A stretch of 63,219 bases of DNA, counting the filler, from Octopus bimaculoides (Eukaryota): NCBI RefSeq assembly GCF_001194135.2. It is 6 parts of 5 records of this genome, joined end to end, with 100 filler letters (N's around TTAATTAATTAA, not from the genome) between each part and the next. Parts side by side here need not be neighbours in the genome. Positions count along the whole stretch, not along the records: positions 11,184 to 32,545 come from NC_068996.1; positions 32,646 to 35,196 come from NC_068983.1; positions 35,297 to 54,546 come from NC_068983.1; 3 more parts are not named here. One strand, 5' to 3'. A program made the translations under genes and the position numbers. Numbering within the stretch: position 1 is the stretch's first letter; every line of letters starts with the position of its first letter. Shown one piece after another: positions 13,773 to 49,304 of the stretch. The notes beneath the pieces were generated by a model. The model was not told the origin of the DNA, ran no database searches, and saw nothing but the letters and a program-made list of their open reading frames with translations.

Positions 13773-14135
13773 ATATGTTAAATAAAATGAGACAACAAAA
13801 CCAAGGAATCTACATACCATGGACAAGAAGCATTTCTACCCATTCTACATAGCACTTTCCTTGGATAATGGACCTGCAACCGTAACATCCTACATATATT
13901 TTTACTTTTATTTTTATTCTCTTATTTCCCTCTATACTTCCTATATCCATCCTTTCCCAAAATAACTCCTTATATTGAACTCTACTATTTCCCTCTAGTT
14001 AACTCTCTCATATCGTACCTGATGAAGGGATATCCCTAATATCCCAGAAACAGTTGTAAGACTACCTTTCTCTTTATAAATGTCCTCTAAATTCCACACA
14101 GCCTTGGTTTTGTTGTCTTATTTTATTTAACATAT
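13773..14135 (+). mobile_element. 363-bp fold-back element with 34-bp terminal inverted repeats and an internal hammerhead-like motif
   Basis: 13773-13806 atatgttaaataaaatgagacaacaaaaccaagg is the reverse complement of 14102-14135 with 1 mismatch. Confidence 0.75.
14013..14062 (+). ncRNA. Type-I hammerhead ribozyme-like motif
   Basis: CTGATGA (14019)-A-GGGATA...TATCCC-A-GAAAC-AGTT-GTA (14058); helix I is partly decayed. Confidence 0.5.
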
Positions 14136-14153
14136 ACATATATACATACATAC

Positions 14154-14191
<38 letters not shown>

Positions 14192-14650
14192 NNNNNNNNN
14201 NNNNNNNNNNNNNNNNNNNNNNNNNNNNNNNNNNNNNNNNNNNNNNNNNNNNNNNNNNNNNNNNCACATGGCATAACATTTTAGAGAAAGTAGTGTTATA
14301 ATCGATCACAGTACTTGATTGCTAATTTATTTGTTTGGAGGCGAATGAGAAATAAAGCTGGAAATTTGAACTCAAAATTATGCCTAATTCTTTGGGATCG
14401 TTAATGGAGCCATATCTGTTGCAAAGATTCGAGTCTGGTCTCCAGTCTGAAGATAATTTCTTTCCTTCCGTTCTTCCTTCCTTCCTTCCTTCCTTCCTTC
14501 CTTCCTTCCTTCCTTCTTTCCCTTCTTCCTTCCTCACGTCCTTCCTTCCTTCTTCTCTCTCTCCCTCCCTCCATCCTTTCCTTCTTCCACATTCATATAT
14601 GTGTATACATATACTTATACAGATGTATAGATGTGCATATATAAGGATAT

Positions 14651-14685
<35 letters not shown>

Positions 14686-14733
14686 GTATATATATATACA
14701 TGTATATACACACTTATATACACACACACATAC

Positions 14734-14768
<35 letters not shown>

Positions 14769-15272
14769 TGTACGTATGTATGTATGTATGTACGTATGTA
14801 TGTATGCTACGTTTAGAAATACATCTATCTCCGGTATTCTGGAAATGCAGAAATCATCATTACATTTCACTACTTTTGTTTCTACAAGTCCGCTGCCAAA
14901 TTGCCTTTTTCCGTTTGCCAGCTTTGGAATTCCTTGTATTTAAGCTATCAGTCCTCACAACCCACACCCAGCTCAGCAAATCTTTCTCCGGCATCAATCA
15001 TAATTCTGCACAGGAATCACTCATGGCACATTAATTTCACCACGTACCGCCTAAATCTCAATAGGTTTTCCCCCATGTAATATTCTGCTGTTTAACGCAT
15101 CATTTAAAAACACTTTTGATGTCACGATCTTCATTCTCTTTAATCTAGACAACTTCGGTCTTTCAACTCTCTCTCTGTCTCCTTCCTTCCTTTTCCTTCT
15201 CTTTCGTTCCTTCTTTCTTTCTTCATTCCTTCCTTTTTCCTTTCTTTCTCTTTCTTTCCGTTTTTTTTTTTT

Positions 15273-15605
15273 CAATTTCTTTCTCTTTCTCGTTCTTTCA
15301 TTCTGTCTCTTTCTTTCTGTTTCGTTTTCGTTTTTTTTTCAATTTCTTTCTCTTTCTCGTTCTTTCATTCTGTCTCTTTCTTTCTGTTTCGTTTTCGTTG
15401 TTTTTTTAATTTCTTTCTCTTTCTCGTTCTTTCATTCTGTCTCTTTCTTTCTGTTTCGTTTTGTTTGTTTTTTTCAATTTCTTTCTCTTTCTCGTTCTTT
15501 CATTCTGTCTCTTTCTTTCTGTTTCGTTTTCGTTTTTTTTTTCAATTTCTTTCTCTTTCTCGTTCTTTCATTCTGTCTCTTTCTTTCGGTTTCGTTTTCT
15601 TTTTT
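15273..15605. repeat. ~67-bp polypyrimidine minisatellite, about 5 copies
   Basis: The unit (c)aatttctttctctttctcgttctttcattctgtctctttctttctgtttcgttttcgttttttt starts at about 15273, 15340, 15408, 15475 and 15543. Confidence 0.9.
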
Positions 15606-17443
15606 CTTTCTGTTTATTGTCTCATTTATTCTACCTTCTGTTCCTTTTATTTTCTTTCTTCCTTCTTCCCTTCACCCCTTCGCCCAGTCATTCCTTCAAA
15701 TTTTTTCTTTCTCATGAGTGTATTTTTAAAAAATGATTTGCTATTCATCTATTTACCTAGATATTCTTCTATCAACTTATCTTTTTTTCATTTTTCATTT
15801 CTCTTCCCATTCTGTTGAAGATATCGTGAGTATATTGAGCCCTTTGTAAATTCGGAACATTGAGATACCCGATGAAACGTTTATCTCATCACTCGGGGCC
15901 AGAGCAACTGAGTCGTAGGGGTGATGTTAAGTGTTGAACACAATTCAGAGTTTTTTTATGGGAAGATGTTTCGAAAAACGTCAGACCTCCCCACCCCACT
16001 ACTCAAAAGATATAGTTTTCCCGAAAAAATTATTTACTCTAACTCTATTTACTAAAATCATTTACTCTAATGTTGTTAAATTTCGAGTTGATTCAACGAT
16101 ATTTTAAATTTCAAATTCAAAGTAAGCGGTGGGTTGATAGAATTGTTACAGGGAGGGGAAAACTGCTCGCAGTAGTAAATTACGGTCATTTGTCTTTTAA
16201 TTTCAAGTCACGCTTTGGTCAACTTTACCTTTCTTCCCTTTCGAGGTCAATAAAGGAATGTGCCATTTGAGTACTGCGATCGATTTGGTATAGTTAGTAA
16301 AGTCATTGAAGCCACAAACAGTGACGAACAAAGTTTGAGTCAGCAGAACAGATCAGAGATAATGAAATTCTTTGAAGCAGGAAAGTAAGCAGCGATATGT
16401 TGTGTAAGGTGTCAATATATGTAGACAGTTCTCATTATCATAATTTGGTAATCCCAGTCATGACAGATACCATAATTAGCAAAGTTTACGATCTTCTATT
16501 ACTATACCAAAATCTCGCAGTTCATATCCCGAGTTCTCTGGCAATGACATCTGGATAAAAAATCTTGGGACTTTTTCCCACCAAAGGACCAAGATCAGCA
16601 ACAGATGAATGACGATACTAGCTAATCTTTTATTCTATAGCAGTGTCAAGCAAACTGTACACACTGTTTATGACATGAGCTGTAGTTGACCTCTACATAC
16701 ACAGCTATGTTTCGAGAGTTGTTGAAATAGGGTTTGACTGATATCCTCACACAATCATAGCTTCACCGAGGGCCGCCATGTGTAGTATTTGTTTTGCTAT
16801 TTCTGATGTTGCTTAAATGTTTCACTTGTTTGTTGTATAGAATATGTGCTGTTTTATGTTGTTGTGTTTATTTTGTTGCAGTTTCTGTTATGCTGAGTGA
16901 TGCACTGTGTGAGTTGTGTTAAAATATCATCGGATGTCCTGTATATATATATATATTGGGGAGTAACACTTTAGCGTTTGAAGCTGTTGAATTTGTTCCA
17001 ATTTATAAAAATTTACTTTCTAAATCATTCGACACGAGCTAAGATCTTACTGTTTTTGTTTTTGTTTTTTTGGGATTTTTTGGAATTTGTGTTATAATGC
17101 TTAATGAAACAGTTTGAAGTTTTCAAATTATCTACTTTCTCACTCTAACACTGTCTCTACTTAGTTGTTCTATCTTTTGTATTTGATAATTTATTCTGCT
17201 TAACTAATCTTATTTTACATATAATAAAATGCAATGTGATTCAAATTGACCCTTCTGGCAGAGGGAAACTAAAAGAACAAACGGAGTGGGAGTAAGTGAC
17301 ACTCAGAGATGCTTAATGCAGGTGAACTACGGTGAGGAGATTTACTCAGAACACGTTCTGCAAATCTTTATCGTAAATAACATGCACTTTAATAATTTCA
17401 CACACATATTCATAAATATACATTAATGTGCTTGGGGAGAGAG

Positions 17444-17535
<92 letters not shown>

Positions 17536-47685: not shown

Positions 47686-47984
47686 NNNNNNNNNNNNNNN
47701 NNNNNNNNNNNNNNNNNNNNNNNNNNNNNNNNNNNNNNNNNNNNNNNNNNNNNNNNNNNNNNNNNNNNNNNNNNNNNNNNNNNNNNNNNNNNNNNNNNNN
47801 NNNNNNNNNNNNNNNNNNNNNNNNNNNNNNNNNNNNNNNNNNNNNNNNNNNNNNTATATATATATATATATAACTTACAAAATTAACCACGAAGAGTATG
47901 TTCTGAAGAAAAAATTTCAGCAAGACGCCAGACTGTAAAAATGAGCAAGACAAATGAAAATATACGAAATAAAAAAATGATTAC

Positions 47985-48050
47985 CTTCGTACCAATCGTT
48001 TCACCTGTTAATATTTACACAAGTAAATATCTGCAGGATCATCAGCGTAG
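47985..48050 (-). ncRNA. Type-I hammerhead ribozyme-like motif
   Basis: Minus strand: ctacg-CTGATGA-T-CCTG-cag-ATATTTAC-ttgt-GTAAATAT-taa-CAGG-T-GAAAC-GATTG-GTA-cgaag. Confidence 0.6.
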
Positions 48051-48243
48051 TCTGTCAATTACAAAATATAATTTCAGAACTAGGCACAGAACGTTCACCT
48101 GAAAGGGAGCAAGTGTAAAGTTCTGCAAATTACATTCGGTGTATTTTTCAATTGTCTTCAATCTGGCGTGTTGCGGCCGGAAATGACTCTGCAATTAATA
48201 AATATCTGCAGCTAATTTACCGGCTTGAGAACATCGTTATTTA

Positions 48244-48408
48244 AAAATTTAATAATGAGGGTAGAAATTGATATTAATCAATTAAAACCAGTGGTCTAGT
48301 ATATTAAAAAAAAATTTTGTATGTAATATAATTTTAATCTTCGTATTTTTTAAATATGCTAGGCCACTGGTTTTAATTGATTAATATTAATTTCTACCCT
48401 CATTATTA

Positions 48409-48414
<6 letters not shown>
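48244..48414. repeat. Inverted repeat, ~60-bp arms
   Basis: aatttaataatgagggtagaaattgatattaatcaattaaaaccagtggtctag pairs with ctaggccactggttttaattgattaatattaatttctaccctcattattaaatt. Confidence 0.9.
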
Positions 48415-48440
<26 letters not shown>

Positions 48441-48639
48441 GCTTGAAAAGATATATATGTACCTATAAACACGTCTACATGTATATATACATGTATATAA
48501 ATATATATATATGTATATGCATAAAAGTTTGTATGTTTATATATTTATATATGCATATATACATATGTATATGCAGTATATACATGCCTGTATGCATATA
48601 TATATATGTGTGTGTATATATATGTATATATACACACAA

Positions 48640-48703
<64 letters not shown>

Positions 48704-48792
48704 GGCAGGGAATCGTCAATTAGTAATAAAATTAATAATTAACAATGTTGCCGGGTAGCTCAGTATGAAAAAACCTTATCGGTAAAACCATT

Positions 48793-49304
48793 TATAATCA
48801 TAAATATATAGGGATTAGCAGTATAGTGCTTCTAGAACATACTGAGAATTCAGAAATAGCAGCCAAAGAACTACTGATTCCAAAACTACAAATTTTTCTC
48901 TAATTGATAGCGATATTTATGGTACACACAGAACAAAAAACAGAAGAGAAGAGTAAAAAAAGAAAAACAAACCTGCGTTTAGTTAATTTGGTACGACGTT
49001 TCACGGTTAAGGGTATGAATTACCCCATTCCGATCTTCAGCCAAATATTCTAATAAATTTGCCAATGTCTAAATAACTCACGTTAATTTTGACCATGCGA
49101 CATCAAGACCACGTGAGGCAGACATTAAGAAATTTATCGGCCAGTGAGTTTAAAATCTCTCACCCCTGTGTGTACCATAAATATCGCTATCAATTAGAGA
49201 AAAATTTGTAGTTTTGGAATCAGTAGTTCTTTGGCTGCTATTTCTGAATTCTCAGTATGTTGGAGAAGCAGGATACTGCTAATCCCTATATATTTATGAT
49301 TATA
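48793..49304. mobile_element. Young 512-bp fold-back element: 139-bp inverted arms around a 234-bp core with a hammerhead (probably PLE pLTR-derived)
   Basis: 48793-48931 and 49166-49304 match at 135 of 139 positions. Confidence 0.85.
48986..49046 (-). ncRNA. Type-I hammerhead ribozyme-like motif (best preserved)
   Basis: Minus strand: ATTTGG-CTGAAGA-T-CGG-aat-GGGGTA-attca-TACCC-ttaa-CCG-T-GAAAC-GTC-GTA-CCAAAT, with a perfect 6-bp helix I. Confidence 0.7.

What the first reader, a model, noticed from the sequence alone, without database searches (positions are those of the whole stretch)
13773..49304. Hammerhead ribozymes paired with fold-back repeats across the 5' region of a Kv1 gene
Seen: four motifs with the type-I order helix I-CUGANGA-helix II-GAAAC-short loop-GUA-helix I (14013-14062 +, 32871-32955 -, 47985-48050 -, 48986-49046 -). 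Each lies inside or within ~200 bp of an inverted repeat (13773/14135, 33075/33145, 48244/48414, 48793/49304). Their sequences are otherwise unrelated, so they look like independent families. All carry 1-2 extra nucleotides on both sides of helix II (CUGANGA-U/A...U/A-GAAAC). Established: Penelope-like elements carry minimal hammerheads in their pLTRs and often insert with inverted pLTRs, and PLE remnants are present in this window. Inference: these are non-autonomous PLE-derived hairpin-plus-ribozyme units. Three of four are on the Kv1 sense strand, so they would combine self-cleavage sites with ADAR-type dsRNA if the pre-mRNA spans them.
Basis: partly seen in the sequence, partly recalled or inferred. 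Interest (0 to 1): 0.72.

Follow-up and report, generated by a model that had tools for sequence, protein, structure and literature searches.

The report
Penelope retroelement stumps, unlinked to Kv1
The four hammerhead-ribozyme motifs and their hairpins are real, but they are clipped ends of common Penelope-like jumping genes lying on other contigs than the Kv1 channel gene, most of them decayed and likely inert, so this is an ordinary, already described arrangement.

Summary
The four motifs exist and exceed chance (6 in the window against 0.04 per shuffle; one sub-pattern 1365 times genome-wide against 28 for its control). The Kv1 story fails: the window is a pack; Kv1 fills unplaced contig C87519, motif 1 lies on C16, motif 2 on C3 at 47.7 Mb, motifs 3-4 on C3 at 83.7 Mb. 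Each motif is the 3' end of its own high-copy family. Families 1 and 2 lie downstream of a GIY-YIG endonuclease, so they are truncated protein-coding Penelope-like elements (likely Hydra clade), not non-autonomous units; families 3 and 4 are ORF-less tandem units of about 520 and 570 nt. Each fold-back is an inverted piece of the same element at its 5' junction, the published PLE insertion pattern. The extra nucleotide on both sides of helix II is already tabulated for Hydra-clade hammerheads (Craig 2021, File S2). The scan has noted the same arrangement on other DNA. Ordinary; the two ORF-less units are modest new members.

The parts
3627..5081 (-). Kv1 (Shaker-type) open frame, 484 aa stop to stop; coding exon likely starts at an acceptor-like site near 5041. 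On contig C87519, unlinked to the motifs.
   Evidence: BTB_2, Ion_trans; K_chan_RES
13647..13806 (-). Family 1: inverted copy of the element's 3' end including the ~140-nt tail that the sense copy lacks
13805..14140 (+). Family 1: 5'-truncated sense copy, ending in a TA/CA microsatellite; C16:28.418 Mb
14013..14062 (+). Motif 1: hammerhead core intact, helix II 7 bp with A/A extras, first two pairs of helix I broken, loop palindrome broken
33105..33145 (+). Family 2: short inverted piece of the element's own 3' untranslated region at the 5' truncation junction (one hairpin arm)
32824..33101 (-). Family 2: 5'-truncated, internally deleted sense copy; C3:47.678 Mb
32871..32955 (-). Motif 2: core intact, long helix II with A/G extras, closing pair of helix I broken
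46952..47297 (-).
47884..48314 (-). Family 3: sense copy of an ORF-less ~520-nt tandem unit; C3:83.706 Mb
47985..48050 (-). Motif 3: core intact, U/U extras, one mismatch in helix I, loop palindrome broken
48314..48423 (+). Family 3: inverted copy of the unit's tail, giving the 48244-48414 hairpin
48692..49166 (-). Family 4: sense copy of an ORF-less ~570-nt tandem unit, with ~100-nt tail, ending in (TA)n
48986..49046 (-). Motif 4: the only intact one of the four; 6-bp helix I, U/U extras, odd palindrome in helix III
49166..49307 (+). Family 4: inverted 142-nt copy of the 3' end without tail (96% complementary arm)
56003..56337 (+).

Best explanation
These are four unrelated, dispersed 3' stumps of Penelope-like retroelements, each carrying a minimal hammerhead motif predicted to work as a dimer and an inverted piece of itself that likely arose during insertion, and they lie on other contigs than Kv1. 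Shown: positions, copy families, the upstream endonuclease of families 1, 2, 5, 6, the ORF-less ~520 and ~570 nt tandem period of families 3 and 4, variable inverted arms, a tail at one end only, microsatellite flanks, paired and covarying helices in the family majority, decay of three of the four window copies. Inferred: the element RNA is copied by a PLE reverse transcriptase-endonuclease into (TA)n sites, starting at either of two internal sites (hence the optional tail), usually stopping early and often adding an inverted copy at the 5' side; the hammerhead would cut tandem element transcripts when two copies pair through the palindromic helix III; families 3 and 4 likely borrow these enzymes. 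As single, mostly damaged copies of different families, the window motifs likely do not cut a host transcript; when transcribed as passengers their arms likely form double-stranded RNA that is A-to-I edited.
For: Places on three other loci. 289-2827 first-look candidates per family. Same-strand endonuclease upstream: family 2 in 3 of 30 loci, family 5 in 2 of 15, family 6 in 3 of 15, family 1 in 3 of 25 loci of its 5' part, mutually 77-84% alike; RT with YRDD, endonuclease and hammerhead in one locus for family 6 and a sister family; CxCX5C linker in family 2. Tandem period 495-531 in 22 of 30 family-3 loci and 563-574 in 7 of 27 family-4 loci. Own-family antisense piece upstream in 9/30, 16/30, 16/30, 13/27, 5/15, 5/15 loci; 14 of 30 pattern-picked loci near an inverted repeat against 2 of 50 flank points. 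In those 30 loci 26 have helix I of 3 bp or more and 25 a palindromic helix III, neither asked for by the pattern. Family 4: 4 pairs changed on both sides, 13 cells against 2.7 shuffled. Literature match: Craig 2021 PMC8557442, Cervera 2014 PMC4209133, Frangieh 2024 PMC11167929.
Against: No cleavage was measured. Rfam gives no hammerhead match for motifs 1 and 4 at E<=10 and none among the 150 listed of 348 window matches. Monomer folds are unremarkable (z -1.1 to -1.9) and do not show the catalytic core. The Hydra RT motifs DKT and RWK were not found in the ten long loci read, and the family-6 linker lacks CxCX5C. Only 40 candidates per family were scored, so a coding parent of family 3 or 4 may have been missed. 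Pairs with change on both sides (4 against 2.2, 51 of 500 shuffles) are not significant on their own, and related copies inflate the cell count. Kv1's 5' exon was not located, so its contig could still adjoin one of the three loci.
Confidence: 0.88

Rival explanations
1. The motifs are a regulatory set in the Kv1 5' region that combine self-cleavage with editable double-stranded RNA in the Kv1 pre-mRNA.
For: Kv1 has an acceptor-like site near 5041 and read depth falls to 0 at 5108-5229, so an upstream exon exists somewhere unlocated; its contig is unplaced. Family-4 RNA reads show clustered A>G differences.
Against: The motifs lie on two chromosomes, 36 Mb apart on C3; at most one locus could adjoin Kv1. 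No hammerhead-family sequence is in the Kv1 stretch. Kv1 paralogues lie on C8 and C15. Three of four motifs are damaged. Six such motifs in 58,929 called bases make presence near any long gene the default.
Confidence: 0.02
2. Families 3 and 4 are true retrozymes that live as abundant self-cleaved circular RNAs, and their genomic copies come from such circles.
For: ORF-less head-to-tail units of 520 and 570 nt with a hammerhead per unit, some loci with two in tandem; compensatory changes among family-4 subfamilies; reads across the unit junction.
Against: In three RNA runs family 4 gives 37-61 reads per million, below a rough genomic share of about 270 per million, on both strands alike, with the unit interior at depth 2-15 against 50-160 at the ends and no pile of ends at the cleavage site; junction reads are explained by genomic tandems.
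Confidence: 0.2
3. The inverted repeats are terminal inverted repeats of miniature DNA transposons that happen to hold hammerhead-like words.
For: Motifs 1 and 4 sit between two arms, as in a MITE.
Against: Arms differ in length and end points from copy to copy, are missing in about half or more of the copies, and often include a second hammerhead or the tail; the families continue into an RT-endonuclease gene or a tandem unit.
Confidence: 0.02
4. The motifs are chance matches in AT-rich sequence.
For: No Rfam support; weak folding z-scores.
Against: 6 against 0.04 per shuffle; 1365 against 28 genome-wide; unasked helix I and palindromes in 26 and 25 of 30.
Confidence: 0.01

Closest known systems
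Hydra-clade C-terminal-endonuclease Penelope-like elements, including Hydra-1_Obim (Craig et al. 2021, PMC8557442; passages, section 11, supplement part 2 read)
   Same: 3' hammerhead with an extra nucleotide on both sides of helix II (File S2 lists cores such as ctgatgat ... tgaa), palindromic helix III, (TA)n targets, 5' truncation, inverted 5'-truncated copy, tail at one end only, CxCX5C linker (family 2).
   Different: None of our hammerheads is the Hydra-1_Obim one listed in File S2; tails here are about 90-185 nt rather than 30-40; helix II is often long; family 6 lacks the linker motif; DKT and RWK not found in the broken copies read.
Minimal hammerheads in pLTRs of metazoan PLEs (Cervera and de la Pena 2014, PMC4209133; parts 1-2 of 4 of the text and parts 1-2 of 3 of the supplement read)
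   Same: Type I order, 4-6 bp helix I, extra nucleotide after A9, palindromic helix III predicted to pair between two copies, mostly single motifs of truncated PLEs, pairs on opposite strands 100-700 bp apart.
   Different: Their consensus has the extra nucleotide on the 5' side only and G10.1-C11.1; ours have a 4-nt palindromic loop and a mismatch (U.U, A.A, A.G) at the base of helix II. Their Fig. S3 text seems to hold a Hydra motif with U on both sides, but the PDF columns were not kept.
Non-LTR retrozymes of animals (Cervera and de la Pena 2020, PMC7229834, passages; Li, Clavereau and Pollet 2026, bioRxiv 10.64898/2026.07.22.740005, part 1 of 5 and passages)
   Same: Families 3 and 4: ORF-less, AT-rich, head-to-tail units with one type-I hammerhead each; an axolotl retrozyme hammerhead also has a U.U mismatch at the base of helix II and cleaves weakly.
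   Different: Units are longer (520-570 against 150-450 nt), mostly 1-1.5 units dispersed with PLE-type inversions and tails, the hammerhead is of the minimal PLE kind, and no abundant unit-length RNA was seen for family 4.
Poseidon element of Anolis, PAc (Frangieh et al. 2024, PMC11167929; passages and part 2 of the main section read)
   Same: Two alternative 3' ends that bound an optional tail; AT-rich targets; no RNA-seq reads ending at the hammerhead cut site.
   Different: Different clade; there the hammerhead overlaps the ORF start and needs the protein to cleave; untested here.

Membership tests
Type I hammerhead ribozyme | Core CUGANGA, GAAA, NUH in type-I order | tested here: met
   All four window motifs
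Type I hammerhead ribozyme | Helices I, II, III pair (family level), with covariation | tested here: met
   Majority pairs in six families; 26 of 30 pattern-picked loci; family 4 counts
Type I hammerhead ribozyme | Closing pairs of helix I intact in the window copies | tested here: not met
   Met by motif 4; motifs 1 and 2 lack the first pair, motif 3 the third
Type I hammerhead ribozyme | Match to an Rfam hammerhead model | tested here: not met
   0 matches at E<=10 for motifs 1 and 4; none in the 150 listed of 348; motifs 2 and 3 not scanned alone
Type I hammerhead ribozyme | Self-cleavage | not testable with these tools
   No assay; no pile of read ends at the family-4 cut site
EN+ Penelope-like elements (families 1, 2, 5, 6) | C-terminal GIY-YIG endonuclease upstream of the 3' hammerhead on the same strand | tested here: met
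   recognised by motifs and by likeness to the window's remnant; Pfam names no GIY-YIG family
EN+ Penelope-like elements (families 1, 2, 5, 6) | Reverse transcriptase upstream of the endonuclease | tested here: inconclusive
   Seen (YRDD) for family 6 and a sister family; copies of families 1, 2, 5 that were read are truncated before it
EN+ Penelope-like elements (all four) | 5' truncation, inverted 5' copy, optional tail at one end, microsatellite target | tested here: met
Hydra clade | CxCX5C linker | tested here: inconclusive
   Present in family 2; CX5C part only in family 1 (read); absent in family 6 and its sister
Hydra clade | RT motifs RWK and DKT; phylogenetic placement | tested here: inconclusive
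   Not found in ten long, broken loci of family 6 and its sister; no tree built
Hydra clade | Hammerhead with extra nucleotide on both sides of helix II, palindromic helix III, (TA)n target | tested here: met
Non-LTR retrozymes (families 3, 4) | ORF-less tandem unit with one type-I hammerhead per unit | tested here: met
Non-LTR retrozymes (families 3, 4) | Canonical hammerhead with loop 1-loop 2 contact; unit 150-450 nt | tested here: not met
   Units about 520 and 570 nt, minimal PLE-type motif; loop contacts not modelled
Non-LTR retrozymes (families 3, 4) | Abundant linear and circular unit-length RNA | tested here: inconclusive
   Family 4 only: low, two-stranded, end-biased coverage; library selection unknown
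Kv1 cis-regulatory element | Lies in the Kv1 locus | tested here: not met

The most novel reading that the evidence does not exclude
Families 3 and 4 are retrozymes caught in the act of using Penelope machinery: ORF-less 520- and 570-nt units that self-cleave as tandem dimers into circular RNA and are pasted into (TA)n by Hydra-clade enzymes, leaving PLE inversions and long tails; A-to-I editing of their fold-backs could switch their adenosine-rich ribozyme cores off.
Probability: 0.15. Interest if true: 0.5.

Novelty: new member of a known kind. Interest (0 to 1): 0.17.

Why it matters
As it stands, little: it adds several families to a described class and removes a false link to an ion-channel gene. 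It shows that such hammerhead ends are dense in this genome (six in 59 kb here), so their presence near a gene is the default. The two ORF-less units give direct structural support (inversions, tails, microsatellite targets) to the proposal that animal retrozymes are moved by Penelope enzymes, and offer ready substrates for testing whether hammerheads with a mismatch at the base of helix II cleave as dimers.

Tried and rejected
Rfam scans gave no hammerhead match. The repeat finder over the window was swamped by microsatellites and N runs. Pfam named neither endonuclease remnant. I first read family 1 as an ORF-less ~1 kb unit because copies stop aligning at an internal microsatellite; the search with its 5' part showed an endonuclease beyond it, so that reading was dropped. 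A first count of inverted pieces gave 27 of 30 for family 3 because the references themselves held inverted arms; recounted with sense-only references it is 16 of 30. The family-3 and family-4 queries contained the inverted arm, which biases their counts upward. Three overlapping family-4 loci (L024, L025, L030) were dropped before counts. No RNA holder was listed for family 4; three raw-read RNA runs of the same species label were laid instead. The lay on Kv1 showed no joint or listed loose end that locates the 5' exon. A pile of 6 read ends at L012:1682 is 6 nt off the predicted cut (after 1675) and in one run only; not counted. The regex for genomic variants failed and was redone. Tail folds show hairpins but no shared motif was tested. 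Lunse et al. 2017 on small PLE hammerhead variants is not held by the library and was not seen; it may already describe two-sided insertions. bioRxiv supplements were not seen. Literature searches for octopus hammerheads listed only Craig 2021 as directly relevant; some searches were general.

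
Full report
Layout. The window is a pack of six stretches with joints at 11084-11183, 32546-32645, 35197-35296, 54547-54646 and 59561-59660. The Kv1 frame (3627-5081, minus, 484 aa) lies in the first stretch, which is the whole of unplaced contig C87519, 11,083 bases. 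Motif 1 maps to C16:28.418 Mb, motif 2 to C3:47.678 Mb, motifs 3 and 4 to C3:83.706 Mb. The two other close Kv1 matches are on C8 and C15. No hammerhead motif or hammerhead-family sequence lies in the Kv1 stretch. Kv1 has an acceptor-like site near 5041 and read depth, low throughout, is 0 at 5108-5229 in all three RNA runs, so a 5' exon likely lies further up and was not located. At most one of the three loci could adjoin it. The organism is likely an octopus (inferred from the 2.34-Gb microsatellite-rich genome and the likeness to Craig's Hydra set; not looked up).

Are the motifs real? All four have the stated order. A descriptor of core, helix II with 0-2 extras and GAAAC-N3-5-GUH finds 6 motifs in the window: the four plus 47105 (-) and 56199 (+); 500 shuffles give a mean of 0.04 and never more than 1 (the descriptor was written after seeing the motifs). 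The exact pattern CTGANGAT-N14-44-TGAAAC-N4-GTA occurs 696 + 669 times in the genome against 11 + 17 for the reversed control. In the first 30 of those matches, 26 have a helix I of 3 bp or more and 25 a palindromic helix III, though the pattern asked for neither, and helix I differs in sequence between families. Within family 4, 92% of cells pair, 4 of 16 pairs change on both sides, 13 cells against 2.7 in shuffles (0 of 500), while the count of pairs alone is not significant (51 of 500) and relatedness inflates cells. Against: Rfam matches neither motif 1 nor 4 at E<=10, and monomer folds score z -1.1 to -1.9 without the catalytic core, as expected for an unstable helix III (inference from PMC4209133).

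State of the window copies. In the family majority helix I is perfect for 4-6 bp and helix III is a palindrome; the extras are A/A (27 of 28 parsed), A/G (19 of 28), U/U (26 of 30) and U/U (27 of 27). The window's motif 1 has C.A and A.G at the first two pairs of helix I, motif 2 A.G at the first and A.C at the third, motif 3 A.A at the third; motifs 1 and 3 have also lost the loop palindrome. Motif 4 is intact. Self-pairing energies of helix III fall from about -11 kcal/mol in intact family-1 and -3 copies to -3.4 and -5.6 in the window copies. Cervera 2014 used a mutant that disrupts the closing pair of helix I in its cleavage tests (supplement legend). So three of four are likely inert, and none has a same-family partner in tandem.

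What the families are. Each motif heads a dispersed family with 289 to 2827 first-look candidates, of which 40 were scored and 15-30 fetched. Copies share the 3' end and thin out upstream. Family 2 runs upstream into a GIY-YIG-type endonuclease in 3 of 30 loci, with a CxCX5C linker. Family 1 crosses an internal microsatellite and reaches an endonuclease in 3 of 25 loci of its 5' part, which are 77-84% alike there. Families 5 and 6 do likewise in 2 and 3 of 15 loci, and one family-6 locus holds RT (YRDD), endonuclease and hammerhead in order. Families 3 and 4 instead return to their own 3' end: period 495-531 nt in 22 of 30 loci and 563-574 nt in 7 of 27, with no endonuclease in family 4 and one distant same-strand hit in 30 for family 3. 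They are ORF-less units; a rare coding parent is not excluded.

The fold-backs. Each is an inverted piece of the same element joined at the 5' truncation point: family 1, 13647-13806, with a ~140-nt tail that the sense copy lacks; family 2, 33105-33145, a piece of its own 3' untranslated region; family 3, 48314-48423, the tail; family 4, 49166-49307, without the tail that the sense copy has. Arms vary in length and are present in 9/30, 16/30, 16/30, 13/27, 5/15 and 5/15 loci. In the pattern-picked set 14 of 30 loci lie in or near an inverted repeat (two of them are one insertion, two are short local hairpins) against 2 of 50 flank points and about 8% of the window. The co-occurrence is real and is the published PLE pattern: an inverted 5'-truncated copy and a tail at one end only (PMC8557442); the tail is explained by two internal start sites of reverse transcription (PMC11167929).

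Expression. Three RNA runs laid on one family-4 unit give 427-789 reads each (37-61 per million against a rough genomic share near 270 per million), equal on both strands, depth 2-15 in the unit interior against 50-160 at the ends, and no pile of ends at the predicted cut. That fits passenger transcription of truncated copies; library selection is unknown. Some reads differ from sister reads only by clustered A>G, with GG where 34 of 34 genomic ends read AA: likely A-to-I editing, without a matched DNA control and from a small share of copies.

What is known. Craig 2021 File S2 lists Hydra-clade hammerheads with cores such as ctgatgat ... tgaa, that is an extra U on both sides of helix II, palindromic helix III and (TA)n targets, and includes an Octopus bimaculoides family. 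Cervera 2014 describes minimal PLE hammerheads, mostly single, some as opposite-strand pairs. Cervera 2020 and Li 2026 describe retrozymes and their likely PLE origin; an axolotl one has a U.U at the base of helix II. Lunse 2017 was not seen. Earlier notes of this scan report the same arrangement on other DNA; my reading was set down before I saw them and they are not counted as evidence.

Verdict. Real motifs, real fold-backs, known cause, no Kv1 link. It works like the 3' end of Hydra-clade PLEs; clade membership is likely for family 2 and not fully tested for the rest. Families 3 and 4 are modest new members between non-autonomous PLEs and retrozymes. Interest 0.17.

Noticed in passing
window 10126-11083 (-), gap 9427-10020: A PLE of a sister family lies in the Kv1 contig on the Kv1 strand; it aligns to within about 375-500 nt of where its hammerhead would be, then runs into a microsatellite and a 594-N gap. 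This is the only place where a hammerhead could lie upstream of the Kv1 coding exon.
   Followed up: partly
window 46952-49307 (-): Three different PLE-type ends (families 5, 3, 4) lie within 2.4 kb in the same orientation, each beside (TA)n; their helix III palindromes differ, so they would not pair with each other.
   Followed up: partly
window 5041 (-): Pyrimidine tract and CAG just inside the Kv1 open frame; the true N-terminus likely comes from an upstream exon not located.
   Followed up: partly
L012:1282-1855: Family-4 RNA reads with clustered A>G changes absent from 34 of 34 genomic ends; likely hyper-editing.
   Followed up: partly
L034, L066, L118, L012 (3' ends): Optional tails of about 140, 185, 90 and 100 nt, much longer than the 30-40 nt of the literature; several fold into hairpins.
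   Followed up: partly
L196-L220; L189: Family 1 and the sister family carry a microsatellite inside their 3' untranslated region, which breaks alignments and makes coding elements look like ORF-less units.
   Followed up: yes
window 28228-28743: A ~515-nt imperfect palindrome without a hammerhead motif.
   Followed up: no
window 31705-31826, 43027-43171, 62751-62827: Short inverted repeats (32-40 nt arms) without hammerhead motifs.
   Followed up: no
window 8066-8527 (-) and 29519-30004 (+): Two related Pif1-helicase fragments, likely Helitron remnants (Pfam Pif1_2B for the second).
   Followed up: no
window 11362-11778 (+), 1103-1768: GIY-YIG-like remnants of another PLE type (read; no Pfam match for the first).
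   Followed up: no
G000 C1, matches: Many further hammerhead families with U/U extras and palindromic loops, helix II spacers from 14 to 44 nt.
   Followed up: partly
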